A stretch of DNA of 42,931 nucleotides. It comes from Escherichia phage 21. The stretch lies in sequence record OL657228.1; one strand, given 5' to 3'. Below the pieces are notes generated by a model, which was not told the origin of the DNA, made no database searches, and saw only the letters and a program-made list of their open reading frames with translations. The position numbers and the translations under genes were made by a program. Positions 28,980-42,852 of this stretch are shown here, in pieces (positions within the stretch are counted from its first letter, which is position 1; every line of letters starts with the position of its first letter).

Positions 28980-29118
28980 TTGTCCTCCTCTTAGCTGCTG
29001 AGGGAGTTTGTGACCGATATATCTGACATGATATTAAGCTCATGGCAGGTACATCTCTTGACTGGTCATAGAGATAAATTTAATGCTGAAAAATGCAGTA
29101 TTGAATTTATCAATTTTT

Positions 29119-29358
29119 CTATTTCCTGCGTATGGCGCGTAACTTCTTAATGTGTTCTGCTGTATCGATCTCTTCGGCTATCCGCTCTGATTCCACTTTA
29201 CTAACAGGTTCAAAGTCATGATTAAAGCGGAACATGCTGGCGATACATGTTCTGCCTTTTCGGATGTAGTGAACTTTGTTGTGGGTAGAACGCAGGATTT
29301 TGCAGGGAGTGCCGTGGTGGTCGACGTACCAGGTGTTAGGGTAAATCACTCTGAACAT
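29119..29358 (-). CDS. hypothetical protein (early-left accessory region)
   Basis: 79 aa ORF in the int-xis-proximal variable region, co-oriented with the pL operon; no family recognised. Confidence 0.4.
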   Translation of the reverse strand: MFRVIYPNTWYVDHHGTPCKILRSTHNKVHYIRKGRTCIASMFRFNHDFEPVSKVESERIAEEIDTAEHIKKLRAIRRK

Positions 29359-29671
29359 TCTTGACCTTGTGTTGTGCGGATTGATATTCAGTGCTGATAT
29401 TCACCTTTATAGCGAACACCTTTACCGGTTTATCGCCAAAGTGCGGATGTGTGATTGTCTTCACTTCATATCCGTCATACGGAACATCAATTCTGCGACT
29501 GGAATCGTCGCGCTTCGGATATCCCTTTGTGATAATCAGGCGGTCATATTCCCGGAACATAATTCGCTTATTCCAGTAGTCATTACACAAGCGATACTCT
29601 TCTGTTTTCTCTCCGCGAATCATGGCATCGAAGTATTCACTTTTAACAGCAAGTTGCAGGTTAGCCATCAC
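29336..29671 (-). CDS. hypothetical protein, possible ASCH/PUA-like domain
   Basis: 111 aa; SEYFDAMIRGEKTEEYR resembles the ASCH-domain N-terminal motif; weak assignment from memory. Confidence 0.4.
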   Translation of the reverse strand: MMANLQLAVKSEYFDAMIRGEKTEEYRLCNDYWNKRIMFREYDRLIITKGYPKRDDSSRRIDVPYDGYEVKTITHPHFGDKPVKVFAIKVNISTEYQSAQHKVKNVQSDLP

Positions 29672-29889
29672 TTAATCCCCCTTTGTTTGCGGATAAGCTC
29701 CAGATCTTGCTGGCAACTGGCGCAAGTACGACAACCCTGAACGGCCAGTCGTCTTCGTTCATCTATCGGATCGCCACACTCACAACAATGAGTGGCAGAT
29801 ACAGCCAGGTAGTTCAGGCGGCGCATTTTTATTGCTGTGTTGCGCTGTAATTCTTCTATTTCTGATGCTGAATCAATGATGTCTGCCAT
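29668..29889 (-). CDS. TraR/DksA-family C4 zinc-finger protein
   Basis: 73 aa with CxxC-x17-CxxC (CCECGDPIDERRRLAVQGCRTCASC), typical of phage TraR-like proteins. Confidence 0.65.
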   Translation of the reverse strand: MADIIDSASEIEELQRNTAIKMRRLNYLAVSATHCCECGDPIDERRRLAVQGCRTCASCQQDLELIRKQRGIK

Positions 29890-29987
29890 CTTTCATTAAT
29901 CCCTGAACTGTTGGTTAATACGCTTGAGGGCGAATGCGAATAATAAAAAAGGAGCCTGTAGCTCCATGATGATTTTGTTTTTCATGT

Positions 29988-30269
29988 TCACCGTTCCTTA
30001 AAGACGCCGTTTAACATGCCGATCGCCAGGCTTAAATGAGTCGGTGTGAATCCCATCAGCGTTACCGTTTCGCGGTGCTTCTTCAGTACGCTACGGCAAA
30101 TGTCATCGACGTTTTTATCCGGAAACTGCTGTCTGGCTTTTTTGATTTCATAATTAGCCTGACGGGCAATACTGCGAAGGGCGTTTTCTTGCTGAGGTGT
30201 CATTGAACAAGTCCCATGTCGGCAAGCATAAGCACACAGAATATGAAGCCCGCTGCCAGAAAAATGCAT
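29988..30269 (-). CDS. hypothetical protein
   Basis: 93 aa ORF; ATG directly follows the upstream gene's stop codon (possible coupling); start may instead be the internal Met (MTPQQ...). Confidence 0.4.
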   Translation of the reverse strand: MHFSGSGLHILCAYACRHGTCSMTPQQENALRSIARQANYEIKKARQQFPDKNVDDICRSVLKKHRETVTLMGFTPTHLSLAIGMLNGVFKER

Positions 30270-30279
30270 TCAGTGGTTG

Positions 30280-30471
30280 TCATACTTGGTCTCTCTCATC
30301 TGCTTCTGCTTTCGCCACCATCATTTCCAGCTTTTGTGAAAGGGATGTGGCTAACGTATGAAACTCTTCGTCTGTTTCTGCTGGTATTGGCACAAACCTG
30401 GCTCCAATTTGAGCAAGGCTATGTGCCATCTCAATGCTCGTTTTTAACTCAACAGGAGATGCTTTGTGCAT
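30280..30471 (-). CDS. hypothetical small protein
   Basis: 63 aa ORF in the operon between exo and xis; no family recognised. Confidence 0.4.
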   Translation of the reverse strand: MHKASPVELKTSIEMAHSLAQIGARFVPIPAETDEEFHTLATSLSQKLEMMVAKAEADERDQV

Positions 30472-30632
30472 ACAGCCCCTCGTTTATTATTTATCTCCTC
30501 AGCCAGCCGCTGGGCTTTCAGTGGATTTTGGATAACAGAAAGGCCGGGAAATACCCAGCCTCGCTTTGTAACGGAGTAGACGAAAGTGATCGCACCTACC
30601 CGGATATTATCGTGAGGATGCTTCATCGCCAT
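30444..30632 (-). CDS. hypothetical small protein
   Basis: 62 aa ORF immediately downstream of exo, overlapping the exo stop. Confidence 0.4.
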
Positions 30633-31303
30633 TGCTCCCCAAATACAAAACCAATTTCAGCCAGTGCCTCGTCCATTTTTTCGATGAACTCCGGCACCAT
30701 CTCGTCAAAACTAGCCATGTACTTTTCATCCCGCTCAACCACGACATAATGCAGTCCTTCACGCTTCATACGCGGGTCATAGTTGGCAAAGTACCAGGCA
30801 TCTTTTCGCGTCACCCACATGCTGTACTGCACCTGGGCCATGTAAGCTGACTTTATGGCCTCGAAACCACCGAGCCGGAACTTCATGAAATTCCGGGAGG
30901 TAAACGGGCATTTCAGTTCAAGGCCGTTGCCGTCACTGCATAAACCATCCGGAGAGCAGGCGGTACGCATACTTTCGTCGCGATAGATGATCGGTGATTC
31001 AGTAACATTCACGCCGGAAGTGAACTCAAACAGGGCTCTGGCGTCGTTCTCGTACTGTTTTCCCCAGGCCAGCGCTTTAGCGTTAACTTCCGGAGCCACA
31101 CCGGTGCAAACCTCAGCAAGCAGGGTGTGGAAGTAGGACATTTTCATGTCAGGCCACTTTTTTCCGGAGCGGGGTTTTGCTATTACGTTATGAACTTCTG
31201 AAGCTGTGATGACGCCGAGCCGTAATTTGTGCCACGCATCATCCCCCTGTTCGACAGCTCTCACGTCGATCCCGGTACGCTGCAGGATAATGTCCGGTGT
31301 CAT
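30623..31303 (-). CDS. exo: exonuclease (Red-alpha)
   Basis: 226 aa, essentially identical to lambda Exo as recalled ([40 protein letters not shown]...). Confidence 0.96.
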
Positions 31304-32085
31304 GCTGCCACCTTCTGCTCTGCGGCTTTCTGTTTCAGGAATCCAAGAGCTTTTACTGCTTCGGCCTGTGTCAGTTCTGACGATGCGCGAATGTCGCGGC
31401 GAAATATCTGGGAACAGAGCGGCAATAAGTCGTCATCCCATGTTTTATCCAGGGCGATCAGCAGAGTGTTAATCTCCTGCATGCTTTCATCGTTAACCGG
31501 AGTGATGTCGCGTTCCGGCTGGCGTTCTGCAGTGTATGCGGTATTTTCGACAATGCGCTCGGCTTCATCCTTGTCATAGATACCAGCAAATCCGAAGGCC
31601 AGGCGGGCACACTGAATCATGGCTTTATGCCGTAACATCCGTTTAGGATGCGACTGCCACGGCCCCGTGATTTCTCTGCCTTCGCGGGTTTTGAATGGTT
31701 CGCGGCGGCATTCATCCATCCACTCGGTAACGCAGATCGGATGATTACGGTCCTTGCGGTAAATCCGGCATGTACAGGATTCGTTGTCCTGCTCAAAGTC
31801 CATGCCATCAAACTGCTGGTTTTCATTGATGATGCGGGACCAGCCATCAACGCCCACCACCGGAACGATGCCGTTCTGCTTATCAGGAAAGGCGTAAATT
31901 TCTTTCGTCCACGGATTAAGGCCGTACTGGTTGGCGACGATCAGCAATGCGATGAACTGCGCATCGCTGGCATCACCTTTAAATGCCGTCTGGCGAAGAG
32001 TGGTGATCAGTTCCTGTGGGTCGACAGAATCCATGCCGACACGTTCAGCCAGCTTCCCAGCCAGCGTTGCGAGTGCTGTACTCAT
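31300..32085 (-). CDS. bet: recombinase Bet (Red-beta)
   Basis: 261 aa, essentially identical to lambda Beta ([37 protein letters not shown]...). Confidence 0.96.
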
Positions 32086-32090
32086 CCGTT

Positions 32091-32507
32091 TTATACCTCT
32101 GAATCAATATCAACCTGATGGTGAGCAATGGTTTCAACCATGTACCGGATGTGTTCTGCCATGCGCTCCTGAAACTCAACATCGTCATCAAATGCACGGG
32201 TAATGGCTTTTTTGCTGGCCCCGCAGCGTTGTAAATGATCGATGCAGAGCGATTCAAACAAATGCTGGGGCAGGCCTTTTTCCATGTCGTCTGCCAGTTC
32301 TGCCTCTTTCTCTTCACGGGCGAGCTGCTGGTAGTGACGCGCCCAGCTCTGAGCCTCAAGACGATCCTGAATGTAATAAGCGTTCATGGCTGAACTCCTG
32401 AAATAGCTGTGAAAATATCGCCCGCGAAATGCCAGGCTGATTAGGAAAACAGGAAAGGGGGTTAGTGAATGCTTTTGCTTGATCTCAGTTTCAGCATTAA
32501 TATCCAT
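32091..32507 (-). CDS. gam: RecBCD inhibitor Gam
   Basis: 138 aa, near-identical to lambda Gam ([24 protein letters not shown]...). Confidence 0.95.
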
Positions 32508-32605
32508 TTTTTATAAGCGTCGACGGCTTCACGAAACATCTTTTCATCGCCAATAAAAGTGGCGATAGTGAATTTAGTCTGGATAGCCATACGTGTTTGA
32601 TCCAT
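32462..32605 (-). CDS. kil: Kil (host division inhibitor)
   Basis: 47-aa frame starting [36 protein letters not shown]..., matches lambda Kil; nested in a longer spurious ORF in the track. Confidence 0.85.
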
Positions 32606-32738
32606 TCTTTGGGACTCCTGGCTGATTAAGTATGTCGATAAGGCGTTTCCATCCGTCACGTAATTTACGGGTGATTCGTTCAAGTAAAGATTCGGAAGGG
32701 CAGCCAGCAACAGGCCACCCTGCAATGGCATATTGCAT
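32574..32738 (-). CDS. cIII: CIII (FtsH/HflB inhibitor)
   Basis: 54-aa frame [54 protein letters not shown], identical to lambda CIII as recalled. Confidence 0.92.
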   Translation of the reverse strand: MQYAIAGWPVAGCPSESLLERITRKLRDGWKRLIDILNQPGVPKNGSNTYGYPD

Positions 32739-32810
32739 GGTGTGCTCCTTATTTATACATAACGAAAAACGCCTCGAGTGAAGCGTTATTGGTATGCGGT
32801 AAAACCGCAC

Positions 32811-33179
32811 TCAGGCGGCCTTGATAGTCATATCATCTGAATCAAATATTCCTGATGTATCGATATCGGTAATTCTTATTCCTTCACTACCATCCATTGG
32901 AGGCCATCCTTCCTGACCATTTCCATCATCCCAGTCGAACTCACAAACAACACCATATGCATTTAAGTCTTTCGAAATTGCTATAAGCAGAGCATGTTGC
33001 GCCAGCATGATTAATACAGCATTTAATAAAGAGCCGTGTTTATTGAGTCGGTATTCAGAGTCTGACCAGAAATTATTAATCTGGTGAAGTTTTTCCTCTG
33101 TCATTACGTCATGGTCGATTTCAATTTCTATTGATGCTTTCCAGTCGTAATCAATGATGTATTTTTTGATGTTTGACAT
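32811..33179 (-). CDS. ea10: Ea10 (SSB-like early protein)
   Basis: 122 aa, MSNIKKYIIDYDWKASIEIEIDHDVMTEEKLHQINNFWSD..., near-identical to lambda Ea10. Confidence 0.9.
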   Translation of the reverse strand: MSNIKKYIIDYDWKASIEIEIDHDVMTEEKLHQINNFWSDSEYRLNKHGSLLNAVLIMLAQHALLIAISKDLNAYGVVCEFDWDDGNGQEGWPPMDGSEGIRITDIDTSGIFDSDDMTIKAA

Positions 33180-33198
33180 CTGTTCATATCCTCACAGA

Positions 33199-33232
33199 TA
33201 AAAAATCGCCCTCACACTGGAGGGCAAAGAAG
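33199..33232 (-). terminator. candidate tL2-like terminator between ral and ea10
   Basis: On the minus strand a GCCCTCCAGTGTGAGGGC hairpin is followed by a T-run (approximate coordinates). Confidence 0.5.
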
Positions 33233-33361
33233 ATTTCCAATAATCAGAACAAGTCGACTCCTGTTTAGTTACGAGCGACATTGCTCCGTGTATTCACTCA
33301 TTGGAATGAATACACAGTGCAGTGTTTATTCTGTTATTTATGCCAAAAATAAAGGCCACTA

Positions 33362-33562
33362 TCAGGCAGCTTTGTTGTTCTGTTTACCAAGTTCTCTGGC
33401 AATCATTGCCGTCGTTCGTATTGCCCATTTATCGACATATTTCCCATCTTCCATTACAGGAAACATTTCTTCAGGCTTAACCATGCATTCCGATTGCAGC
33501 TTGCATCCATTGCATCGCTTGAATTGTCCACACCATTGATTTTTATCAATAGTCGTAGTCAT
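33362..33562 (-). CDS. ral: Ral (restriction alleviation protein)
   Basis: 66 aa, MTTTIDKNQWCGQFKRCNGCKLQSECMVKPEEMFPVMEDGKYVDKW..., matches lambda Ral. Confidence 0.92.
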   Translation of the reverse strand: MTTTIDKNQWCGQFKRCNGCKLQSECMVKPEEMFPVMEDGKYVDKWAIRTTAMIARELGKQNNKAA

Positions 33563-33640
33563 ACGGATAGTCCTGGTATTGTTCCATCACATCCTGAGGA
33601 TGCTCTTCGAACTCTTCAAATTCTTCTTCCATATATCACC

Positions 33641-33970
33641 TCAAATAAGTGGTTTGCTGCCTAATTTAATTTTCTGGCGACCAACACAAGTCACACCCAT
33701 TTCACTGCGTGGCTTGCTGTAGTAAATACGGTTCTGTTTACGCTCGACTTCTTCTGCCTTCTTGCAGCGAAGGCTTCCGAGTGATGCTGCTTTATCTGCT
33801 CTGACGCAACCAGAGAGCTTTAGCGCAATTTTTCGCGCCAGTGCTTCATTACTGCGTCGCTCGGCAATAAGTTCTGCTCTGCGAGCTTTGTAGCGGCTTT
33901 TTGCCGTACCTTTGGATTCTTTCCAGACAATGGTTACCATGATGGTCTCCTTTAAGTGGCTTTGGCGCAT
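33641..33970 (-). CDS. N: antitermination protein N (phage-21 type)
   Basis: Arginine-rich motif GTAKSRYKARRAELIAERR matches the phi21 N ARM peptide as I recall it; C-terminus (YYSKP...GVTCVGRQKIKLGSKPLI) is lambda-N-like. Start may be the internal Met (MVTIVWK...). Confidence 0.8.
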   Translation of the reverse strand: MRQSHLKETIMVTIVWKESKGTAKSRYKARRAELIAERRSNEALARKIALKLSGCVRADKAASLGSLRCKKAEEVERKQNRIYYSKPRSEMGVTCVGRQKIKLGSKPLI

Positions 33971-34051
33971 GACGCGTCGAGGTGCTTATCTTCTCGATCG
34001 CTGTCTTGTAGCTGCAATTCGCGCCATCCCCAAAACCACTCAAGTTCTGGT

Positions 34052-34071
34052 CTCAACGGTTAGGTTGAGAG
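34052..34071 (-). promoter_or_regulatory. nutL: nutL boxB-like hairpin
   Basis: Transcript-sense sequence UCUCAAC-CUAACC-GUUGAGA between pL and N; shares the UAACCG loop motif with the nutR hairpin (approximate coordinates). Confidence 0.6.
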
Positions 34072-34136
34072 TCCGTCGATGTTAAAGAGCCTGCCAATCT
34101 GTTCCGTTTGGCTTCCAGCGTCCTGCTGATGGCTTA

Positions 34137-34200
34137 AATTTAAGACTTCTTAATTTATTGGTCAAGTGCATTTTTGAAGAAAACTTAATTTTATGGGCGT
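34137..34200 (-). promoter_or_regulatory. pL: pL promoter and OL operators
   Basis: Minus-strand -35 TTGACC and -10 TAAATT with 17-bp spacing, overlapping a TTAAGACTTCTTAA palindrome that resembles the operator-like palindrome at OR (approximate coordinates). Confidence 0.6.
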
Positions 34201-34227
34201 GAATTTAGTTTGTCTTTGATTTTTAAC

Positions 34228-34254
34228 GGGAAATAAAAAAGGGGCGAAAGCCCC
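34228..34254 (-). terminator. rho-independent terminator just downstream of cI
   Basis: AAGGGGC-GAAA-GCCCCTT hairpin with a flanking T-run on the minus strand, at or just past the cI stop (approximate coordinates). No rexA/rexB follow cI. Confidence 0.65.
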
Positions 34255-34905
34255 TTAAGGAAGGTTTGCTAGCTTGGCATCAACGACAACGCCAATGATT
34301 TTACAGTTCCCATTGATTTCAATCATTGGGTATTGTGGATTGAGTGGTTTCAGGAATTTTCTACCGGCATCAATAACTAACTTTTTGAATGTCGCCTCGT
34401 TTTCTCCTTCAAGTTTGGCGACTACCAGCTTTCCATTACGTGGTTCGACTTCTGGGTCGACGAGAATAATCATCCCCTCAGGAATACTCAGTCCTGCCGG
34501 GGCAGTCATTGAATCGCCTTTAACGTCGAGCCAAAAAGAGTCTTCAGAACAATCTACCGTTGTGTCGTACCAGTTATCTATTGCACGCCTATGATATGGC
34601 TCTACAGCTTCCATCCAACATCCTGCGCTTACCCAACTAATTAGAGGATACGAACCTCTTGGATCATGCCTGCTGTGATAGGCAATGTTTGAAAGACTAT
34701 CCTCTCCTTTCAACAGGTAATCAGGGGAGCACTGCAAAGCCTTGGCTAAGGCCAATAGGTTTTCGCCATTGGGCTCAGTTTCAGATCGCTCCCATTGGGA
34801 AATAGCAACATTAGACACGCCAACCATCTTGCCAAGGGCAGCCTGCCTAATCTTGAGTTCTTTTCTGCGAGCGCGAATACGCTCACCCATCAGTTGTGTA
34901 TTCAT
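34255..34905 (-). CDS. cI: CI-type prophage repressor (HTH plus S24 autopeptidase domain)
   Basis: 216 aa; N-terminal HTH (IRQAALGKMVGVSNVAISQWE), C-terminal LexA-like domain with GDSM serine and downstream lysine; divergent from cro. Confidence 0.9.
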   Translation of the reverse strand: MNTQLMGERIRARRKELKIRQAALGKMVGVSNVAISQWERSETEPNGENLLALAKALQCSPDYLLKGEDSLSNIAYHSRHDPRGSYPLISWVSAGCWMEAVEPYHRRAIDNWYDTTVDCSEDSFWLDVKGDSMTAPAGLSIPEGMIILVDPEVEPRNGKLVVAKLEGENEATFKKLVIDAGRKFLKPLNPQYPMIEINGNCKIIGVVVDAKLANLP

Positions 34906-34985
34906 AGTTAAGACATCTTAAATAAACTTGACTTAAGATTCCTTTGGTGGATAATTTAAGTGTTCTTTAATTTCGGAGCGAGTCT
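34906..34985. promoter_or_regulatory. OR: OR operators with pR (and divergent pRM)
   Basis: Rightward -35 TTGACT and -10 GATAAT (about 34928..34955); palindrome TTAAGACATCTTAA and related half-sites; SD GGAG before cro. Confidence 0.7.
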
Positions 34986-35171
34986 ATGTACAAAAAAGAT
35001 GTTATTGACCACTTCGGAACCCAGCGTGCTGTTGCTAAAGCACTAGGCATTAGCGATGCAGCAGTCTCTCAGTGGAAAGAAGTTATCCCAGAGAAAGACG
35101 CCTATCGATTGGAAATCGTTACAGCTGGCGCCCTGAAGTATCAAGAAAGTGCTTACCGCCAAGCGGCATAA
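34986..35171 (+). CDS. cro: Cro repressor
   Basis: 61 aa with HTH (GTQRAVAKALGISDAAVSQW), divergent from cI across the operator region. Confidence 0.9.
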   Translation: MYKKDVIDHFGTQRAVAKALGISDAAVSQWKEVIPEKDAYRLEIVTAGALKYQESAYRQAA

Positions 35172-35195
35172 GCAAATTGCTCTTTAACAGTTCTG

Positions 35196-35218
35196 GCCTT
35201 TCACCTCTAACCGGGTGA
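35196..35218 (+). promoter_or_regulatory. nutR: nutR boxB hairpin (phage-21 type)
   Basis: UUCACC-UCUAACCG-GGUGAG hairpin between cro and cII, consistent with the phi21 boxB as I recall it (approximate coordinates). Confidence 0.65.
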
Positions 35219-35286
35219 GCAAACATCAGCGGCAAATCCATTGGGTGTGCCGCTATAACTCAATATCAATATAGGTAAATTAACAA

Positions 35287-35586
35287 ATGGCACAAGCAAG
35301 CTACAGCAAGCCAACACAGCGAGAAATTGATCGCGCTGAAACTGATTTACTCATCAACCTGTCAACGCTTACCCAGCGCGGTCTGGCAAAGATGATTGGC
35401 TGTCATGAATCGAAGATAAGCAGAACGGACTGGAGATTTATTGCTTCGGTCTTGTGTGCTTTCGGAATGGCATCAGACATCAGTCCGATTAGCAGGGCTT
35501 TTAAGTATGCGCTTGATGGACTCACAAAGAAAAAACGCCCGGTGTGCAAGACCGAGCGTTCTGAACAAATCCAGATGGAGTTCTGA
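35287..35586 (+). CDS. cII: CII transcriptional activator
   Basis: 99 aa; C-terminus KKKRPVCKTERSEQIQMEF parallels lambda CII; HTH in the centre. Confidence 0.85.
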   Translation: MAQASYSKPTQREIDRAETDLLINLSTLTQRGLAKMIGCHESKISRTDWRFIASVLCAFGMASDISPISRAFKYALDGLTKKKRPVCKTERSEQIQMEF

Positions 35587-35608
35587 GGTCATTACTGGAT
35601 CTATCAAC
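35530..35608 (-). ncRNA. oop: OOP antisense RNA
   Basis: Minus-strand sequence GUUGAUAGAUCCAGUAAUGACCUCAGAACUCCAUCUGGAUUUGUUCAGAACGCUCGG...CCGGGCGUUUUUU matches lambda oop RNA as recalled; antisense to the cII 3' end, ending in a hairpin plus U-run (approximate coordinates). Confidence 0.75.
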
Positions 35609-35618
35609 AGGAGTCATT

Positions 35619-36518
35619 ATGACAAATACAGCAAAAATACTCAACTTCGGCAGAGGTAACTTTGCCGGACAGGAGCGTAATGTGGCAGATCTCGATGATG
35701 GTTACGCCAGACTATCAAATATGCTGCTTGAGGCTTATTCGGGCGCAGATCTGACCAAGCGACAGTTTAAAGTGCTGCTTGCCATTCTGCGTAAAACCTA
35801 TGGGTGGAATAAACCAATGGACAGAATCACCGATTCTCAACTTAGCGAGATTACAAAGTTACCTGTCAAACGGTGCAATGAAGCCAAGTTAGAACTCGTC
35901 AGAATGAATATTATCAAGCAGCAAGGCGGCATGTTTGGACCAAATAAAAACATCTCAGAATGGTGTATCCCTCAAAACGAGGGAAAATCCCCTAAAACGA
36001 GGGATAAAACATCCCTCAAATTGGGGGATTGCTATCCCTCAAAACAGGGGGACACAAAAGACACTATTACAAAAGAAAAAAGAAAAGATTATTCGTCCGA
36101 GAATTCTGGCGAATCCTCTGACCAGCCAGAAAACGATCTTTCTGTGGTTAAACCGGATGCTGCAATTCAGAGCGGCAGCAAGTGGGGAACAGCAGAAGAC
36201 CTGACCGCCGCAGAGTGGATGTTTGACATGGTGAAGACCATCGCGCCATCAGCCAGAAAACCGAATTTTGCTGGGTGGGCTAACGATATCCGCCTGATGC
36301 GTGAACGTGACGGACGTAACCACCGCGATATGTGTGTGCTTTTCCGCTGGGCCTGCCAGGACAACTTCTGGTCCGGTAACGTGCTGAGTCCGGCCAAACT
36401 CCGCGACAAGTGGACCCAGCTCGAAATCAACCGTAACAAGCAACAGGCAGGCGTGACAGCCAGCAAACCAAAACTCGACCTGACAAACACTGACTGGATT
36501 TACGGGGTGGATTTATGA
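35619..36518 (+). CDS. O: replication initiator O
   Basis: 299 aa, essentially identical to lambda O as recalled (MTNTAKILNFGRGNFAGQERNVADLDDGYARLSNMLLEAY...). Confidence 0.96.
   Translation: MTNTAKILNFGRGNFAGQERNVADLDDGYARLSNMLLEAYSGADLTKRQFKVLLAILRKTYGWNKPMDRITDSQLSEITKLPVKRCNEAKLELVRMNIIKQQGGMFGPNKNISEWCIPQNEGKSPKTRDKTSLKLGDCYPSKQGDTKDTITKEKRKDYSSENSGESSDQPENDLSVVKPDAAIQSGSKWGTAEDLTAAEWMFDMVKTIAPSARKPNFAGWANDIRLMRERDGRNHRDMCVLFRWACQDNFWSGNVLSPAKLRDKWTQLEINRNKQQAGVTASKPKLDLTNTDWIYGVDL
35965..36110 (+). repeat. ori: ori-lambda: four O-binding iterons plus adjacent AT-rich region inside the O gene
   Basis: Four tandem 18-20 bp iterons of the form TCCCTCAAAACGAGGGA (atccctcaaaacgaggga / aatcccctaaaacgaggga / atccctcaaattggggga / tccctcaaaacaggggga) followed by an A-rich tract (approximate coordinates). 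Confidence 0.85.
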
Positions 36519-37216
36519 AAAACATCGCCGCACAGATGGTTAACTTTGACCGTGAGCAGATGCGTCGGATCGCCAACAACATGCCGGAACAGTACGACGA
36601 AAAGCCGCAGGTACAACAGGTAGCGCAGATCATCAATGGTGTGTTCAGCCAGTTACTGGCAACTTTCCCGGCGAGTCTGGCTAACCGGGACCAGAACGAA
36701 CTGAACGAAATCCGCCGCCAGTGGGTGCTGGCTTTCCGGGAAAACGGGATCACCACAATGGAACAGGTTAACGCAGGAATGCGCGTAGCCCGTCGGCAGA
36801 ATCGACCATTTCTGCCATCACCCGGGCAGTTTGTTGCATGGTGCCGGGAAGAAGCATCCGTTATCGCCGGACTGCCAAACGTCAGCGAGCTGGTTGATAT
36901 GGTTTACGAGTATTGCCGGAAGCGAGGCCTGTATCCGGATGCGGAGTCTTATCCGTGGAAATCAAACGCGCACTACTGGCTGGTTACCAACCTGTATCAG
37001 AACATGCGGGCCAATGCGCTTACTGATGCGGAATTACGCCGTAAGGCCGCAGATGAGCTTGTCCATATGACTGCGAGAATTAACCGTGGTGAGGCGATCC
37101 CTGAACCAGTAAAACAACTTCCTGTCATGGGCGGTAGACCTCTAAATCGTGCACAGGCTCTGGCGAAGATCGCAGAAATCAAAGCTAAGTTCGGACTGAA
37201 AGGAGCAAGTGTATGA
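36515..37216 (+). CDS. P: replication protein P (DnaB helicase loader)
   Basis: 233 aa, near-identical to lambda P; overlaps O stop. Confidence 0.95.
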   Translation: MKNIAAQMVNFDREQMRRIANNMPEQYDEKPQVQQVAQIINGVFSQLLATFPASLANRDQNELNEIRRQWVLAFRENGITTMEQVNAGMRVARRQNRPFLPSPGQFVAWCREEASVIAGLPNVSELVDMVYEYCRKRGLYPDAESYPWKSNAHYWLVTNLYQNMRANALTDAELRRKAADELVHMTARINRGEAIPEPVKQLPVMGGRPLNRAQALAKIAEIKAKFGLKGASV

Positions 37217-37503
37217 CGGGCAAAGAGGCAATTATTCATTACCTGGGGACGCATAATAGCTTCTGTGCGCCGGACGTTGCCGCGCTAACAGGCGCAACAG
37301 TAACCAGCATAAATCAGGCCGCGGCTAAAATGGCACGGGCAGGTCTTCTGGTTATCGAAGGTAAGGTCTGGCGAACGGTGTATTACCGGTTTGCTACCAG
37401 GGAAGAACGGGAAGGAAAGATGAGCACGAACCTGATTTTTAAGGAGTGTCGCCAGAGTGCCGCGATGAAACGGGTATTGGCGGTATATGGAGTTAAAAGA
37501 TGA
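37213..37503 (+). CDS. ren: Ren
   Basis: 96 aa, MTGKEAIIHYLGTHNSFCAPDVAALTGATVTSINQAAAKMARAG..., matches lambda Ren. Confidence 0.9.
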   Translation: MTGKEAIIHYLGTHNSFCAPDVAALTGATVTSINQAAAKMARAGLLVIEGKVWRTVYYRFATREEREGKMSTNLIFKECRQSAAMKRVLAVYGVKR

Positions 37504-37526
37504 CCATCTACATCACTGAGCTAATA

Positions 37527-37556
37527 ACAGGCCTGCTGGTAATCGCAGGCCTTTTT
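37527..37556 (+). terminator. tR2-like rho-independent terminator
   Basis: AGGCCTGC-tggtaatc-GCAGGCCT hairpin followed by TTTTTATTT between ren and ninB (approximate coordinates). Confidence 0.65.
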
Positions 37557-37576
37557 ATTTGGGGGAGAGGGAAGTC

Positions 37577-38017
37577 ATGAAAAAACTAACCTTTGAAATT
37601 CGATCTCCAGCACATCAGCAAAACGCTATTCACGCGGTACAGCAAATTCTTCCAGACCCAACCAAACCAATCGTAGTAACCATTCAGGAACGCAACCGCA
37701 GCTTAGACCAGAATCGAAAGCTTTGGGCTTGCCTTGGTGACGTCTCTCGTCAGGTTGAATGGCATGGTCGCTGGCTGGATGCAGAAAGCTGGAAGTGTGT
37801 GTTTACCGCAGCATTAAAGCAGCAGGATGTTGTTCCTAACCTTGCCGGGAATGGCTTTGTGGTAATAGGCCAGTCAACCAGCAGGATGCGTGTAAGCGAA
37901 TTTGCGGAGCTATTAGAGCTTATACAGGCATTCGGTACAGAGCGTGGCGTTAAGTGGTCGGACGAAGCGCGACTGGCTCTCGAATGGAAAGCGCGATGGG
38001 GAGACAGGGCGGCATGA
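37577..38017 (+). CDS. ninB: NinB recombination protein
   Basis: Start [21 protein letters not shown] with SD GGGAGAGGGAAG upstream; matches lambda NinB. Confidence 0.9.
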
Positions 38018-38196
38018 GACGACAGCGACGAAGTATCACCGACATCATCTGCGAAAACTGCAAATACCTTCCAACGAAACGCTCCAGAAATAAACGCAAG
38101 CCAATCCCAAAAGAATCTGACGTAAAAACCTTCAACTACACGGCTCACCTGTGGGATATCCGGTGGCTAAGACATCGTGCGAGGAATACAAGGTGA
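38014..38196 (+). CDS. small Nin-region zinc-finger-like protein (NinD/NinE-like)
   Basis: 60 aa, [24 protein letters not shown]...; start overlaps the ninB stop (ATGA); which lambda nin ORF it corresponds to is uncertain. Confidence 0.6.
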
Positions 38197-38363
38197 TTGA
38201 CCCAAATCGAAGTTACGAACAAGAAAGCGTCGAGCGGGCTTTAACGTGCGCTAATTGCGGTCAGAAGCTGCATGTGCTGGAAGTTCACGTGTGTGAGTAC
38301 TGCTGTGCAGAGCTGATGAGCGATTCGAATAGCTCGATGCACGAGGAAGAAGATGATGGCTAA
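38193..38363 (+). CDS. ninF: NinF-like small protein
   Basis: GTG start ([37 protein letters not shown]...) with SD GAGGA 8 nt upstream; Cys-rich; resembles lambda NinF from memory. Confidence 0.6.
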
Positions 38364-38967
38364 ACCAGCGCGAAGACGATGTAAAAACGATGAATGTCGG
38401 GAATGGTTTCACCCTGCATTCGCTAATCAGTGGTGGTGCTCTCCAGAGTGTGGAACCAAGATAGCACTCGAACGACGAAGTAAAGAACGCGAAAAAGCGG
38501 AAAAAGCAGCAGAGAAGAAACGACGACGAGAGGAGCAGAAACAGAAAGATAAACTTAAGATTAGAAAACTCGCCTTAAAGCCCCGCAGTTACTGGATTAA
38601 ACAAGCCCAACAAGCCGTAAACGCCTTCATCAGAGAAAGAGACCGCGACTTACCATGTATCTCTTGCGGAACGCTCACGTCTGCTCAGTGGGATGCCGGA
38701 CATTACCGGACAACTGCTGCGGCACCTCAACTCCGATTTGATGAACGCAATATTCACAAGCAATGCGTGGTGTGCAACCAGCACAAAAGCGGAAATCTCG
38801 TTCCGTATCGCGTCGAACTGATTAGCCGCATCGGGCAGGAAGCAGTAGACGAAATCGAATCAAACCATAACCGCCATCGCTGGACTGTCGAAGAGTGCAG
38901 GGCCATCAAGGCGGAGTATCAGCAGAAACTCAAAGACCTGCGAAACAGCAGAAGTGAGGCCGCATGA
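38353..38967 (+). CDS. ninG: NinG (Rap) recombination endonuclease
   Basis: 204 aa, [34 protein letters not shown]..., matches lambda NinG. Confidence 0.92.
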
Positions 38968-39010
38968 CGTTCTCAGTAAAAACCATTCCAGATCACAAGG
39001 GAGAAGGCGC

Positions 39011-39499
39011 ATGGGCATAAGAGAACTAAACCTCACCAAAGAACAGCACGAGTGGCTGAATGGCTGGCTTGAACTGTGGGGCGCATGGGTTTATTCAGGT
39101 CGTCTGGAAAAGCGCATGAGCAGCGTAATAGCTAAGTTCATGGAGAGCGTAGAGCCGGGAAGAGTTATGACAAGGCCAATGTGTAATGATGATGATGGAA
39201 TGTTGATTTCTCAGGTCGTCGATTCCGTCATGTACATTGACAAGAAAGCCTTTGGCATCCTCCTCAGCTACTACGCCCACGGCTCTTCCAAGCACGCCAT
39301 TGCATCTTACTATCATCGCGTCGCAAGACCTCGCAAGATGTTATGCCGGGGCGGCGGGCGCATTCAAAAACCATCGCTCGCAACCTGTCGACGGGAAGTT
39401 GACGAAATCCTCAATGCCTCGTTGTTTATGATTTACCCGGTTCTGGATAGTGCGTTTAAAAACCGGAAACGTGTAGAGAAAATTAAACATGTAGCATAG
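39011..39499 (+). CDS. Q: late-gene antiterminator Q (non-lambda, phage-21-like type)
   Basis: 162-aa frame from MGIRELNLTKEQHEWL with SD GGAGAAGG upstream; sits between the nin genes and the pR'/tR' region; no similarity to lambda Q, so identity rests on position and size. Confidence 0.6.
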   Translation: MGIRELNLTKEQHEWLNGWLELWGAWVYSGRLEKRMSSVIAKFMESVEPGRVMTRPMCNDDDGMLISQVVDSVMYIDKKAFGILLSYYAHGSSKHAIASYYHRVARPRKMLCRGGGRIQKPSLATCRREVDEILNASLFMIYPVLDSAFKNRKRVEKIKHVA

Positions 39500-39544
39500 A
39501 ACGTGTTGACATCATTGAGCAAATGAGCAACACTATTCGCATAA

Positions 39545-39590
39545 GCTGCCGTTAGTGACTCTTAAGTTGCAACGGTGGCTTTTTTTATTT
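39545..39590 (+). terminator. tR'-like terminator downstream of Q (with pR' candidate about 39505..39540)
   Basis: GCCGTT...AACGGTGGC hairpin followed by TTTTTTTATTT; TTGACA -35-like hexamer just after the Q stop (approximate coordinates). Confidence 0.6.
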
Positions 39591-39665
39591 GGGTCAGTCG
39601 TATAAAGGTCATTACGGAAGGCTGTTAACCTTCTTATCGTGGTTCGAGTCCACGCTGTCCCGCCA
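39591..39665 (+). tRNA. tRNA-like gene, anticodon GUU (Asn) by hand folding, atypical D-arm
   Basis: 75 nt by hand fold: acceptor GGGTCAG/CTGTCCC (one mismatch), anticodon stem GGAAG/CCTTC with loop CUGUUAA, T-arm CGTGG-TTCGAGT-CCACG, 3' CCA encoded (approximate coordinates). Confidence 0.55.
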
Positions 39666-39670
39666 AACAT

Positions 39671-39746
39671 GCTGGTTTAGCTCCAATGGTAGAGCAGTCG
39701 CCTTGTAAGCGAATGGGTAGCGGTTCAAGTCCGTTAACCAGCACCA
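39671..39746 (+). tRNA. tRNA-like gene, anticodon UGU (Thr) by hand folding
   Basis: About 76 nt: acceptor GCTGGTT/AACCAGC, D-arm TAGCTCCAATGGTAGAGCA, anticodon loop CUUGUAA, T-loop TTCAAGT, 3' ACCA (approximate coordinates; anticodon assignment tentative). Confidence 0.55.
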
Positions 39747-39865
39747 TAACTGAGCCGTAGCCACTGGCTATCATGAATTCATCAGTGATAGTTACGCTGC
39801 GGCCTTCTTTTTTTCCCCTTCCCAATATAAGAACTACGCAATCCGTTACTGGCGGAGGCGTTGCT

Positions 39866-40081
39866 ATGAAATCAATGGACAAAATCTCAACTGGCATTGC
39901 CTACGGAACATCTGCTGGTAGTGCGGGATACTGGTTTTTGCAGTGGTTGGATCAGGTCAGTCCGTCACAGTGGGCTGCGATTGGAGTGCTTGGAAGCCTT
40001 GTGTTGGGTTTTCTCACTTATCTGACAAATCTGTATTTCAAAATCAGAGAAGACAGACGAAAGGCTGCGAGAGGTGAATAA
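39866..40081 (+). CDS. S: pinholin S21 (dual-start holin/antiholin)
   Basis: 71-aa frame [71 protein letters not shown]; dual-start MKSM motif; matches phage-21 S21 as I recall it. Confidence 0.9.
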
Positions 40082-40578
40082 TGCCTCCATCATTACGAAA
40101 AGCCGTTGCTGCTGCTATTGGTGGCGGGGCTATTGCCATAGCATCTGTGTTAATCACTGGCCCAAGTGGTAACGATGGTCTGGAAGGTGTCAGCTACATA
40201 CCATACAAAGATATTGTTGGTGTATGGACTGTATGTCACGGGCATACAGGAAAAGACATCATGCTCGGTAAAACGTATACCAAAGCAGAATGCAAAGCCC
40301 TCCTGAATAAAGACCTTGCCACGGTCGCCAGACAAATTAACCCGTACATCAAAGTCGATATACCGGAAACAATGCGCGGCGCTCTTTACTCATTCGTTTA
40401 CAACGTGGGTGCTGGCAATTTCAGAACATCGACGCTTCTTCGCAAAATAAACCAGGGCGATATCAAAGGCGCATGTGATCAGCTACGTCGCTGGACATAT
40501 GCTGGCGGTAAGCAATGGAAAGGTCTCATGACTCGTCGTGAGATTGAGCGTGAAATCTGTTTGTGGGGTCAGCAATGA
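40081..40578 (+). CDS. R: SAR endolysin (R21-like lysozyme)
   Basis: 165 aa; N-terminal signal-anchor-release segment ([20 protein letters not shown]) followed by a lysozyme-like domain; pairs with the pinholin. Confidence 0.88.
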
Positions 40579-41036
40579 ACAGAGTAACCGCGATTATCTC
40601 CGCTCTGGTTATCTGCATCATCGTCTGCCTGTCATGGGCTGTTAATCATTACCGTGATAACGCCATTACCTACAAAGCCCAGCGCGACAAAAATGCCAGA
40701 GAACTGACGCTGGCGAACGCGGTAATTACTGACATACAGATGCGTCAGCGTGATGTTGCTGCGCTCGATGCAAAATACACGAAGGAGTTAGCTGATGCGA
40801 AAGCTGAAAATGATGCTCTGCGTGATGATGTTGCCGCTGGTCGTCGTCGGTTGCACATCAAAGCAGTCTGTCAGTCAGTGCGTGAAGCCACCACCGCCTC
40901 CGGCGTGGATAATGCAGCCTCCCCCCGACTGGCAGACACCGCTGAACGGGATTATTTCACCCTCAGAGAGAGGCTGATCACTATGCAAAAACAACTGGAA
41001 GGAACCCAGAAGTATATTAATGAGCAGTGCAGATAG
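40575..41036 (+). CDS. Rz: spanin inner-membrane subunit Rz
   Basis: Start [21 protein letters not shown]; near-identical to lambda Rz. Confidence 0.9.
40795..40977 (+). CDS. Rz1: spanin outer-membrane lipoprotein Rz1 (embedded in Rz, +1 frame)
   Basis: 60 aa with lipobox (LVVVGC) and proline-rich tract, fully nested within Rz in another frame. Confidence 0.88.
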
Positions 41037-41067
41037 AGCTGCCCATATCGATGGGCAACTCATGCAA

Positions 41068-41361
41068 TTATTGTGAGCAATACACACGCGCTTCCAGCGG
41101 AGTATAAATGCCTAAAGTAATAAAACCGAGCAATCCATTTACGAATGTTTGCTGGGTTTCTGTTTTAACAACATTTTCTGCACCACCACAAATTTTTGCT
41201 GCATCGACAGTTTTCTTCTGCCCAATTCCCGAAACGAAGAAATGATGGGTGATGGTTTCCTTTGGTGTTACTGCTGTAGGTTTGTTTCCAACAGTAAACG
41301 TCTGTTGAGCACATCCTGTAATAAGCATTGCCAGAGCGGCAGAAAACAACATTTTTTTCAT
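41068..41361 (-). CDS. bor: Bor serum-resistance lipoprotein
   Basis: 97-aa frame MKKMLFSAALAMLITGCAQQTFTV...EARVYCSQ, near-identical to lambda Bor. Confidence 0.92.
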   Translation of the reverse strand: MKKMLFSAALAMLITGCAQQTFTVGNKPTAVTPKETITHHFFVSGIGQKKTVDAAKICGGAENVVKTETQQTFVNGLLGFITLGIYTPLEARVYCSQ

Positions 41362-41841
41362 CTTATTATCCTGCATTGTTAAAAACGGCAGAATCCTATG
41401 TGACAACAATTAAACGATAGTTAAATGGATTGATGAAAATTAAAACTACACAGGTGGGCTCAGACTATTGGAGGAAGTTGGGGACACTCAGAATCCTGTG
41501 GAATGAAATAAACCGGTCTATCCGTCCATTACCCTTTTAGCTGCGCTGTATCGTCGCCGTATTCCCGCATTAACCATGACCGTAGCCCGACGGGGAATTC
41601 CTTCTGCGTGAGTGTGCGGGAATAATTAAAAACGATGCACACCGGGTTTTTACCGCGTTAATGATTCGCGGGTTTATCCCGGTGCGATGGTGGAAGAAAC
41701 AGGAAGCTGTATTACAGAAAGTGCTACTACTGTATCCCGATGCGATGTATGTAATGTGAGTCAGATAATGGCACAGGATGTGGTGATGTGGCAGTCTGGA
41801 ACACAGGATATATTGTCAGAATAAGACCCGTAGGAATAAAA

Positions 41842-42168
41842 ATGAAAAGACGCCTTTTACTACTTTTTCTGTTATCTGTCCTGGCAGTGGGATGCTCGCA
41901 GCAAAAAGCTGATGAGCCCCGGCAATTAGTGACGGTGTATCCACGATATCCGGAATATGCTGCAGCAAATTATATCAAGGGGCTGGTTGAGGTTAAGTTC
42001 GATATTGGTGCTGATGGGACTGTGACACGGATCGTTTTTCTCCGCTCAGAGCCTCATAATTTGTTTCGTGATGAAGTGGTGAAGGCCATGGCGAAATGGC
42101 GATTTGAAAAGAATCGCCCCTGTCAGGGAGTGAAGAGACAATTTATCTTTACGCCGTCACGTCCTTGA
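41842..42168 (+). CDS. putative envelope lipoprotein (TonB C-terminal-like)
   Basis: Start MKRRLLLLFLLSVLAVGCSQQ (lipobox LAVGC) with SD AGGA upstream; C-terminal part (YPRYPEYAAANYIKGLVEVKFDIGADGTV...AMAKWRF) resembles a TonB C-terminal domain. Confidence 0.6.
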   Translation: MKRRLLLLFLLSVLAVGCSQQKADEPRQLVTVYPRYPEYAAANYIKGLVEVKFDIGADGTVTRIVFLRSEPHNLFRDEVVKAMAKWRFEKNRPCQGVKRQFIFTPSRP

Positions 42169-42290
42169 TGCTTCCAGGTAGAGAGGGGCTGGAAGCAGGA
42201 GAAAAATGAAAGAGCCAGCGGTTATATTTTTGTCATGGCTGACGAGGAATGATGGAAGAAGGCGTTGTATGCCACACAACGCCTCACTGT

Positions 42291-42470
42291 TCATTTCTTC
42301 TTTTTCTCTGGTGGAACCCGATGAATAAGAGTTGCACTGGTTTCCGATGAGATGGCGATATACTCGGGCAAAGTATGCTGGCAGTTTTCCAACTGGTCAA
42401 AAATACCTGCTCTCGTCTGTTGCAATGCCTGCAGCATGCGGCGGCAATGCGCCTTGCTTTTACTAACCAT
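42291..42470 (-). CDS. hypothetical small protein (59 aa)
   Basis: ATG preceded by SD GGAAGGAAAG; MVSKSKAHCRRMLQALQQTRAGIFDQLENCQHTLPEYIAISSETSATLIHRVPPEKKKK; no family recognised. Confidence 0.45.
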   Translation of the reverse strand: MVSKSKAHCRRMLQALQQTRAGIFDQLENCQHTLPEYIAISSETSATLIHRVPPEKKKK

Positions 42471-42531
42471 CTTTCCTTCCTCTATCAGTCGCTGCGTGAA
42501 CTCATCATGGAATACCAGGTAAATGCGGATG

Positions 42532-42783: not shown

Positions 42784-42852
42784 TTGATGATGCCTCTGTG
42801 TGAAATGACGGTAAACGACGCACTTGTGCCGGCACATAATAGCAAGCACCAT

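What the first reader, a model, noticed from the sequence alone, without database searches (positions are those of the whole stretch)
33641..35218. Phage-21-type N with matching boxB hairpins, embedded among lambda-identical recombination and replication genes
The N ARM (GTAKSRYKARRAELIAERR) and both boxB hairpins (nutL UCUCAACCUAACCGUUGAGA; nutR UCACCUCUAACCGGGUGA) share a UAACCG loop motif and differ from lambda's. The flanking exo/bet/gam/kil/cIII/ral and O/P are near-identical to lambda. The immunity region also lacks rexA/rexB, with cI followed directly by a terminator. This localises the mosaic junctions to the N-cI-cro segment.
Basis: partly seen in the sequence, partly recalled or inferred. 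Interest (0 to 1): 0.4.

Follow-up and report, generated by a model that had tools for sequence, protein, structure and literature searches.

The report
Coliphage 21 N antiterminator and nut sites

Summary
N is a 99-aa gene at 33641-33940(-). Its residues 8-29 match the phage 21 N peptide of PDB 1NYB at 22 of 22 positions. Each nut site has the boxA GCTCTTTAACA followed by a boxB hairpin with a CUAACC hexaloop (nutL 34051-34090(-), nutR 35179-35218(+)). This composite occurs exactly twice in the window and never in 100 shuffles. The two stems differ on both sides at 5 of 7 pairs yet still pair.

The interpretation needs correcting. This is not a lambda carrying a phage 21 insert; it is phage 21 itself. 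The window length of 42,931 bp, the two tRNAs, the exact Int and holin proteins and the Q-binding element all match the published genome. The immunity region is 100% identical to the lab hybrid lambda imm21 over 4213 bp. The flanks are 97.6-98% identical to lambda, not identical, and the head genes only about 66%.

Homology to lambda breaks at 33657|33658 and 35520|35521, so the divergent block also includes the N-terminal part of cII. Inside it, the stretch from boxA to boxA (pL, cI, pR, cro) is P22 immC-like: cI is 93.5% and cro 60/61 identical. Across 81 loci the N arginine-rich motif (ARM) type and the boxB type co-vary without exception. All of this is already known, so interest is low.

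The parts
33641..33940 (-). N gene of phage 21 (99 aa): processive transcription antiterminator and first gene of the pL operon
   Evidence: ORF. AAGGAG lies 7 nt upstream of the ATG at 33940. The exact protein is named 'Probable regulatory protein N' in UniRef. The same CDS is annotated 'antiterminator' in lambda imm21.
33854..33919 (-). Codons 8-29 of N: the arginine-rich motif (ESKGTAKSRYKARRAELIAERR) that binds boxB RNA
   Evidence: 22/22 identical to PDB 1NYB chain A, the phage 21 N peptide solved in complex with boxB RNA.
33644..33754 (-). Codons 63-99 of N: C-terminal region homologous to the lambda N C-terminus
   Evidence: 59% identity over 37 aa to lambda N residues 72-107; phmmer hit to 6GOV chain N. 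That this part of lambda N binds RNA polymerase is from my own knowledge.
34051..34070 (-). nutL boxB hairpin (UCUCAAC-CUAACC-GUUGAGA)
   Evidence: Folds at -7.3 kcal/mol, z -5.8. Conserved in all 65 loci carrying the phage 21-type ARM.
34080..34090 (-). nutL boxA (GCUCUUUAACA)
   Evidence: One of only two exact matches in the window. It marks the left edge of homology to P22.
34137..34165 (-). pL promoter (TTGACC-17-TAAATT), overlapped by oL operator sites at 34140-34153 and 34175-34188
   Evidence: Promoter scan. Matches to the P22-type operator core TTAAGNNNNCTTAA.
34239..34256 (-). Intrinsic terminator hairpin overlapping the cI stop codon, followed by a T tract; no rexA/rexB
   Evidence: AAGGGGCUUUCGCCCCUU followed by UUUUAUUU.
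34255..34905 (-). cI repressor of phage 21 (216 aa, HTH_3 plus Peptidase_S24), P22 c2-like
   Evidence: Pfam hits. 93.5% aa identity to P22 c2 and 34% to lambda cI.
34908..34969 (+). oR operators (34908-34921, 34933-34946, 34956-34969) with pR (TTGACT-16-GATAAT, 34928-34955)
34986..35171 (+). cro (61 aa), P22_Cro family
   Evidence: Pfam PF14549, 96.9 bits. 60/61 identical to P22 Cro.
35179..35189 (+). nutR boxA (GCUCUUUAACA)
   Evidence: It marks the right edge of homology to P22.
35201..35218 (+). nutR boxB hairpin (UCACCU-CUAACC-GGGUGA)
   Evidence: Folds at -6.3 kcal/mol, z -2.05. The phage 21-type boxB was found at nutR in 64 of 65 phage 21-type loci. Its stem covaries with the nutL stem.
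35287..35586 (+). cII (99 aa). Codons 1-78 are phage 21-specific; from 35521 onward the sequence is lambda-like (98%)
   Evidence: Pfam Phage_CII. Lambda homology resumes at 35521.
33658..35520 (.). The phage 21 immunity block with no lambda homology (1863 bp). It replaces lambda 34382-38590 (4209 bp: sieB, N, nutL, pL, rexB, rexA, cI, pR, cro, nutR, 5' part of cII)
   Evidence: blastn of the window against NC_001416.

Best explanation
The window is the complete cos-to-cos genome of coliphage 21. The flagged segment is its native immunity and early-regulation region.

Proposed mechanism. When cI repression is lifted, RNA polymerase starts at pL and pR. It transcribes nutL and nutR, each made of a boxA (GCUCUUUAACA) followed by a boxB hairpin with a CUAACC hexaloop. 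N is the first gene of the pL transcript. Its N-terminal arginine-rich helix (residues 8-29) binds the boxB hairpin on the nascent RNA. Host NusB/NusE bind boxA, and NusA and NusG join. The lambda-like C-terminus of N (residues 63-99) engages RNA polymerase. The polymerase then reads through downstream terminators into the recombination genes on the left and the cII-O-P-Q genes on the right.

Specificity. It resides in the pairing of ARM and boxB. It differs from the lambda, P22 and HK620 types and travels with them through mosaic exchange.

Shown here: the identity of the window, the anatomy, the identity of the ARM to the solved phage 21 N peptide (the CUAACC hexaloop is confirmed from the literature), stem covariation, and ARM/boxB co-inheritance.

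Inferred from established lambda N biology: Nus factor recruitment and terminator read-through.
For: Identity of the window:
- The integrase is an exact match to VINT_BPP21 / 'tyrosine integrase [Escherichia phage 21]', seen on a 42,931-bp contig. The holin is an exact match to HOLIN_BPP21.
- The published phage 21 genome is 42,931 bp with 2 tRNA genes (PMC9119081). The window is 42,931 bp with tRNA-Asn and tRNA-Thr.
- The phage 21 Q-binding element ATTGAGCA/AATGAGCA (quoted in PMC8022706) is present once, at 39514-39529.
- Window 33301-37513 is 100% identical to lambda imm21. This includes the 26 positions in O/P/ren where the window differs from lambda. Outside that stretch the hybrid equals lambda.

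The system:
- N residues 8-29 equal PDB 1NYB chain A at 22/22 positions. The C-terminus matches lambda N in 6GOV.
- The CUAACC hexaloop of phage 21 boxB in 1NYB is described in PMC12550061.
- The boxA+boxB composite occurs exactly twice, with 0 occurrences in shuffles.
- Both hairpins fold as expected.
- Between nutL and nutR, 5 of 7 stem pairs are changed on both sides and 98% of cells are paired, against 20-52% when the partners are slid.
- All 65 loci with the phage 21 ARM (window included) have the CUAAYC-type boxB at nutL, and 64 of them also have the phage 21-type boxB (CUAAYN loop) at nutR. All 16 with the HK620-type ARM have the CCCGC-CGAAAU-GCGGG boxB. There are no mixed cases, even across at least 4 different intervening immunity modules.
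- pL, pR, the operators and the cI terminator are in the expected places.
Against: - No functional assay can be run here.
- The Pfam N_peptide hit is below the gathering threshold (22.4 vs 27.9 bits).
- No sequence similarity to the NusA-binding region of lambda N was detected.
- The 81 loci are related prophages, not independent samples.
- The GenBank record OL657228 is not held in the collections, so base-for-base identity to it was not checked directly.
Confidence: 0.95

Rival explanations
1. The window is a recombinant: a lambda backbone that acquired a phage 21 N-cI-cro cassette. It would be either the laboratory hybrid lambda imm21 / DE3 or a natural equivalent. This is essentially the first reader's framing.
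For: The immunity region is 100% identical to lambda imm21 and DE3. The recombination and replication genes are 97.6-98% identical to lambda.
Against: - The head genes (1-7371) are only about 66-69% identical to lambda and to lambda imm21.
- The b region, int and lysis genes have no lambda homology.
- Outside 33301-37513 the hybrid carries the lambda alleles and the window does not: 93 differences on the left and 17 on the right within that alignment.
- Int, holin, Q-binding element, tRNAs and genome length are those of phage 21.
Confidence: 0.02
2. The two hairpins are not N-binding sites. They would be ordinary transcription terminators or chance palindromes, and the similarity of their loops would be coincidental.
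For: The 71-nt contexts do not fold better than shuffles (z -0.45 and -0.04). Short hairpins are common.
Against: - Neither hairpin is followed by a U tract, and neither is called by the terminator scan.
- Each lies 9-11 nt downstream of an exact 11-nt boxA. The composite is found only twice, at the canonical positions (after pL before N, and after cro before cII), and never in shuffles.
- The loops are identical while the stems are different but complementary.
- The loop type switches together with the N ARM type in relatives.
- A solved N peptide-boxB complex exists.
Confidence: 0.01
3. A close natural relative of phage 21, such as an E. coli prophage sharing imm21, int and the lysis genes, rather than the laboratory phage 21 isolate itself.
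For: Related prophages are common. The N protein was seen on 700 contigs and the Int cluster has 1614 members. PhiR63_2 is 99.9% identical over the left 21.5 kb. OL657228 could not be aligned directly.
Against: The exact length of 42,931 bp and the cos-to-cos ends match the publication. The exact Int sequence sits on a 42,931-bp contig named Escherichia phage 21. The 4213-bp stretch with zero differences from the phage 21-derived part of lambda imm21 also argues for the isolate.
Confidence: 0.03

Closest known systems
Coliphage 21 N / nut21 system (PDB 1NYB; genome OL657228, Feiss et al. 2022)
   Same: Everything tested. The ARM is 22/22 identical and the boxB loop is CUAACC. Both nut sites, the imm21 region (100% to lambda imm21 and DE3), Int, holin, Q-binding element, tRNAs and genome length all match.
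   Different: Nothing detected. Base-for-base comparison with OL657228 was not possible because the record is not held.
Phage lambda N / nutL-nutR system
   Same: Same layout: pL-nutL-N on the left, pR-cro-nutR-cII on the right, with boxA followed by boxB. The N C-terminus is homologous (59% over 37 aa). The flanking ral..exo and cII C-terminus..O-P are 97.6-98% identical.
   Different: The ARM is unrelated in sequence. Lambda boxB is a 5-bp stem with a GAAAA/GAAGA pentaloop; phage 21 has a 6-7-bp stem with a CUAACC hexaloop. Lambda boxA is CGCUCUUA; here it is GCUCUUUAACA. Lambda has sieB, rexA and rexB; phage 21 has none. cI is only 34% identical and cro is unrelated.
Salmonella phage P22 immC region (c2, cro, gene 24)
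   Same: The stretch from nutL boxA to nutR boxA is 83.6% identical in DNA. c2/cI is 93.5% and Cro 60/61 identical. The operator cores are the same (TTAAGNNNNCTTAA). There are no rex genes.
   Different: P22 gp24 shows no detectable similarity to N21. The P22 boxB hairpins (GCGCU-GACAA-AGCGC) differ. P22 c1 shows no BLAST hit to cII of phage 21.
HK620 / CUS-3 / IME10-type N proteins
   Same: The central and C-terminal part of N (residues 34-99) is 97-98% identical. boxA and the spacer are the same. Some carry the imm21/P22-like cI-cro.
   Different: The ARM is NARNRRRARRQAQREQ, and both boxBs are CCCGC-CGAAAU-GCGGG. The ARM and both boxBs are exchanged together.

Membership tests
Lambdoid N/nut processive antitermination system | Small basic protein with an N-terminal arginine-rich motif that binds boxB RNA | tested here: met
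   Residues 8-29 are identical to the phage 21 N peptide solved in complex with boxB (1NYB). The Pfam N_peptide hit is only sub-threshold (22.4 vs 27.9 bits).
Lambdoid N/nut processive antitermination system | Two nut sites (boxA followed by a boxB hairpin), one in the pL transcript upstream of N and one in the pR transcript downstream of cro | tested here: met
   There are exactly two composites, at 34051-34090(-) and 35179-35218(+), each downstream of a predicted promoter.
Lambdoid N/nut processive antitermination system | boxB structure maintained by compensatory changes, with specificity co-varying with the ARM | tested here: met
   5 of 7 pairs are changed on both sides between nutL and nutR. 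ARM type and boxB type are perfectly associated across 81 loci.
Lambdoid N/nut processive antitermination system | C-terminal RNA polymerase-binding region homologous to lambda N | tested here: met
   59% identity over 37 aa to lambda N residues 72-107; hit to 6GOV chain N.
Lambdoid N/nut processive antitermination system | NusA-binding segment and Nus-dependent terminator read-through | not testable with these tools
   No sequence similarity to lambda N residues 34-47. Function requires in vivo or in vitro assays.
Coliphage 21 (the phage itself) | Genome of 42,931 bp with 2 tRNA genes; phage 21 Int, S21 holin and Q21 Q-binding element; imm21 | tested here: met
Laboratory hybrid lambda imm21 / DE3 | Lambda sequence everywhere outside the imm21 substitution | tested here: not met
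   Heads are about 66% identical. int, the b region and the lysis genes are non-homologous. There are 110 SNPs/indels against the hybrid outside 33301-37513 within the aligned 29678-38017.
P22 immC-type immunity module | c2-like repressor, P22_Cro and P22-type operators | tested here: met
   cI is 93.5% and cro 98.4% identical to P22. PF14549 hit. Operator cores found. Whether the immunity specificity is actually shared was not tested.

The most novel reading that the evidence does not exclude
The only mildly new angle is evolutionary. N specificity is a split cassette made of the ARM codons, the nutL boxB and the nutR boxB, the last lying more than 1.2 kb away. Across 81 loci this cassette is always inherited together, even though the cI-cro module between its parts is exchanged for at least 4 different types.

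The junctions recur at a few points:
- the pL start (about 34132) or the nutL boxA (34076);
- the end of cro (about 35160) or the nutR boxA (35189);
- cII codon 79 (35521).

One relative (L023) carries the same G-to-A change at the 3' loop-closing base in both nut sites. This hints at concerted change of the two sites.

If boxA acts as a recombination linker and the two nut sites co-evolve by selection on one N, that would be a tidy case study. It extends ideas already in the lambdoid mosaicism literature.
Probability: 0.25. Interest if true: 0.2.

Novelty: already known. Interest (0 to 1): 0.06.

Why it matters
It matters little as a discovery. Phage 21 N, its nut sites and the imm21 region have been standard material of molecular genetics since the 1960s-80s. 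The peptide-RNA complex is solved (1NYB), the genome is published (OL657228), and the same region sits in every BL21(DE3) expression strain.

The value of this check is to show three things:
- The 'mosaic' is simply the natural architecture of phage 21 relative to lambda and P22.
- The ARM/boxB pairing rule holds without exception in 81 related loci.

Tried and rejected
- Folding the nut sites in 71-nt contexts gave non-significant z-scores. Only the minimal hairpins stand out, so thermodynamics alone is weak evidence. I relied on the composite motif, covariation and ARM association instead.
- The Rfam E-value search of 29000-42931 found no nut/boxB family. It found only Lambda_thermo, two tRNAs and a chance snoRNA hit.
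- GenBank OL657228 is not in the collections, so the identity rests on indirect but convergent evidence.
- The Cilley & Williamson 2003 paper (PMC1370434) is not held. The hexaloop description was taken from PMC12550061 and PMC6061696.
- PMC2800207 contained no boxA sequence strings. The statement that the phage 21 boxA equals the rrn boxA core is therefore from my own knowledge.
- The literature search for '21 and P22 share immunity specificity' found nothing usable, so I claim only sequence identity, not shared specificity.
- The lambda imm21 / DE3 hypothesis was considered first, because of the 100% hits. It was rejected.
Full report
**1. What is in the sequence**

Reading 32800-36600 and listing ORFs shows the canonical lambdoid early region.
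- A leftward ORF at 33641-33970(-) contains MVTIVWKESKGTAKSRYKARRAELIAERR....
- A 216-aa leftward repressor lies at 34255-34905(-).
- A 61-aa rightward cro lies at 34986-35171(+).
- A 99-aa cII lies at 35287-35586(+), followed by O and P.

The N start is best placed at the ATG at 33940, giving 99 aa. It has AAGGAG 7 nt upstream. The further-upstream ATG is replaced by Ile in relatives that keep the rest. Lambda imm21 and DE3 annotate the same 300-nt CDS.

Pfam assigns:
- HTH_3 plus Peptidase_S24 to the repressor;
- P22_Cro to cro;
- Phage_CII to cII;
- Ral to the ORF left of N;
- only a sub-threshold N_peptide hit to N.

**2. The nut sites are real and non-random**

The 11-mer GCTCTTTAACA occurs exactly twice, at 34080-34090(-) and 35179-35189(+). 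The composite GCTCTTTAACA-N(5-20)-CTAACCG also occurs exactly twice and never in 100 dinucleotide-preserving shuffles.

The boxB hairpins:

| Site | Sequence | Coordinates | Energy | z |
|---|---|---|---|---|
| nutL | UCUCAAC-CUAACC-GUUGAGA | 34051-34070(-) | -7.3 kcal/mol | -5.8 |
| nutR | UCACCU-CUAACC-GGGUGA | 35201-35218(+) | -6.3 kcal/mol | -2.05 |

Both hairpins also appear in the MFE of the 71-nt contexts, although those contexts as a whole are not unusually stable.

I aligned the two sites and their natural variants and counted pairs. 98.2% of cells are paired, against 20-52% when the 3' partners are slid. Five of 7 stem pairs are changed on both sides between nutL and nutR, while the first four loop positions (CUAA) are invariant.

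The positions are canonical. nutL lies between a pL-like promoter (34165-34137, TTGACC-17-TAAATT) and N. nutR lies just after cro, downstream of pR (34928-34955, TTGACT-16-GATAAT).

An intrinsic-terminator hairpin (34256-34239, then a T run) overlaps the cI stop codon. There is no room for rex genes.

P22-type operator cores (TTAAGNNNNCTTAA) cluster at oL (34140, 34175) and oR (34908, 34933, 34956).

**3. What the window is**

The immunity region gave 100% hits to phage DE3 and to lambda imm21. The two halves of the window, however, matched natural lambda relatives better than those hybrids.

Direct blastn against lambda (NC_001416) and lambda imm21 (OM418625) shows:

| Window region | Content | Identity to lambda |
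|---|---|---|
| 1-7371 | heads | about 66-69% |
| 8025-18189 | tails | 95.5% |
| 19.6-29.7 kb | b region and int | essentially no homology |
| 29678-33657 | ea22 to ral | 97.6% |
| 33658-35520 | immunity block | none |
| 35521-38017 | cII C-terminus to ninB | 98.0% |
| 38021-38992 | ninE to ninG | 97.6% |
| 40575-41415 | Rz and bor | 94.6% |

The window is 100.0% identical to lambda imm21 from 33301 to 37513. This includes the 26 positions in O, P and ren where the window differs from lambda. Outside that stretch the hybrid carries lambda alleles. This is the signature of the donor of imm21.

Exact-sequence look-ups confirm it:
- The integrase is VINT_BPP21 / 'tyrosine integrase [Escherichia phage 21]' on a 42,931-bp contig.
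- The holin is HOLIN_BPP21.
- N is UniProt's 'Probable regulatory protein N'.

The genome announcement (Feiss et al. 2022, PMC9119081) gives phage 21 as 42,931 bp with 2 tRNA genes. It lists EU078592 (DE3) among earlier fragments. It also notes that lambda imm21 carries extra phage 21 DNA outside the immunity region, exactly as one search shows.

The window has two tRNAs, Asn-GTT and Thr-TGT, at 39591-39746. It also has the phage 21 Q-binding element ATTGAGCAAATGAGCA at 39514-39529. OL657228 itself is not held in the collections.

**4. Mosaic anatomy**

Relative to lambda, the junctions are 33657|33658 (17 nt inside the 3' end of N) and 35520|35521 (cII codon 79). The 1863-bp block replaces 4209 bp of lambda: sieB, N, nutL, pL, rexB, rexA, cI, pR, cro, nutR and the 5' part of cII.

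Relative to P22, homology (83.6%) runs from 34076 to 35189. That is from the nutL boxA to the nutR boxA, and it stops before each boxB.

At the protein level:
- cI is 93.5% identical to P22 c2.
- cro is 60/61 identical to P22 Cro.
- N21 has no detectable similarity to P22 gp24.
- N21 matches lambda N only over its last 37 residues (59%).

**5. Cognate pairing tested in relatives**

A scan of viral contigs with N21 returned 80 loci.
- Sixty-four of them carry the phage 21 ARM joined to three different C-termini.
- Sixteen carry a different ARM (NARNRRRARRQAQREQ) joined to the phage 21-type central and C-terminal part.
- This second ARM is the N type of HK620, CUS-3, IME10 and mEp213.

Including the window, every locus with the phage 21 ARM (65/65) has the UCUCAAC-CUAAYC boxB at nutL. 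Sixty-four of 65 have the CACCU-CUAAYN boxB at nutR. Every HK620-type locus has CCCGC-CGAAAU-GCGGG at nutL (16/16) and at nutR (15/16). The two loci without a nutR call had none found within the 3 kb held. There are no mixed cases.

The association holds although the distance from N to nutR varies (1.24, 1.76, 2.57 and 2.89 kb for the phage 21 type). This variation arises because the cI-cro module between about 34132 and about 35160 has been replaced.

These loci are related prophages, not independent samples. The result is consistent with the known specificity rule rather than an independent proof.

**6. Mechanism**

Shown here:
- the anatomy;
- identity of the ARM (22/22) to the peptide of the solved phage 21 N-boxB complex, 1NYB;
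- the CUAACC hexaloop of that complex, described in PMC12550061 and PMC6061696;
- homology of the C-terminus to the part of lambda N present in the antitermination complex 6GOV.

Inferred from established lambda N biology (my own knowledge): N binds boxB on the nascent RNA. NusB/NusE bind boxA, which in phage 21 equals the core of the rrn boxA. NusA and NusG join. The modified polymerase reads through the terminators beyond N and cro.

**7. Verdict**

However, the window is phage 21 itself, so this is the type specimen of an already known system. The statement about lambda-identical flanks is loosely right: 97.6-98% for the early genes, but the heads are about 66% identical and the int, b-region and lysis genes are unrelated. 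Novelty: already known. Interest: very low.

Noticed in passing
window 21967-25416 (-): A four-gene Mn/Fe ABC transporter operon of the sitABCD type sits in the b region of the phage: a ZnuA-like binding protein, an ABC_tran ATPase and two ABC-3 permeases. It is a bacterial virulence-type moron. The genome announcement mentions such loci.
   Followed up: partly
window 39591-39746 (+): Two tRNA genes, Asn-GTT and Thr-TGT, lie between Q21 and the lysis cassette. This matches the '2 tRNA genes' stated for phage 21.
   Followed up: yes
window 39011-39529 (+): The Q21 late antiterminator (Phage_antitermQ) is followed by the phage 21 Q-binding element ATTGAGCA/AATGAGCA at 39514-39529. The pinholin S21 (39866-40081) and the endolysin R21 (40081-40578; SAR type from my own knowledge) follow.
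   Followed up: partly
window 33301-37513 vs L001 (lambda imm21): The phage 21-derived DNA in the lab hybrid lambda imm21 is far larger than the non-homologous imm block. The crossovers lie between 33300 and 33642 (near ral) and between 37435 and 37514 (in ren). The hybrid's O, P and part of ren are therefore phage 21 alleles.
   Followed up: yes
window 38017-38021 vs lambda 41084-42097: Relative to lambda, phage 21 naturally lacks about 1 kb of the nin region (ninC and ninD). ninB is joined almost directly to ninE.
   Followed up: no
L023 (IMGVR_UViG_2909262264_000002), nutL and nutR: One relative has the same G-to-A change at the base 3' of the CUAACC loop in both nut sites. In nutL this turns C-G into a C-A mismatch; in nutR it turns U-G into U-A. 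The N ARM is unchanged. This may be a concerted change of the two sites.
   Followed up: no
L058-L082 (16 loci); phages HK620, CUS-3, IME10, mEp213: N proteins here have an HK620-type ARM (NARNRRRARRQAQREQ) fused at about residue 34 to a phage 21-type remainder (97-98% identical). Both nut sites have a matching CCCGC-CGAAAU-GCGGG boxB. This is an intragenic mosaic junction between the RNA-binding part and the rest of N.
   Followed up: partly
window 32693-32751 (-): Rfam Lambda_thermo, the cIII mRNA thermoregulator, scores 88.5 bits in the lambda-like left arm.
   Followed up: no
window 34029-34049 (-): A second 8-bp hairpin (CCAGAACU-UGAGU-GGUUUUGG) lies immediately 3' of the nutL boxB in the N leader. 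Its role is unknown; it could relate to N leader processing or translation control.
   Followed up: no
window 35532-35644 (-): An oop-like unit lies antisense to the 3' end of cII: a promoter TTGAGT-17-CATAAT (35644-35616) and a strong terminator (35562-35532). The recurrent mosaic junction at 35521 lies next to it.
   Followed up: no
window 41788-42168 (+): A 126-aa ORF with a TonB_C domain and a lipoprotein-like signal sequence lies near the right end. It has no lambda counterpart.
   Followed up: no
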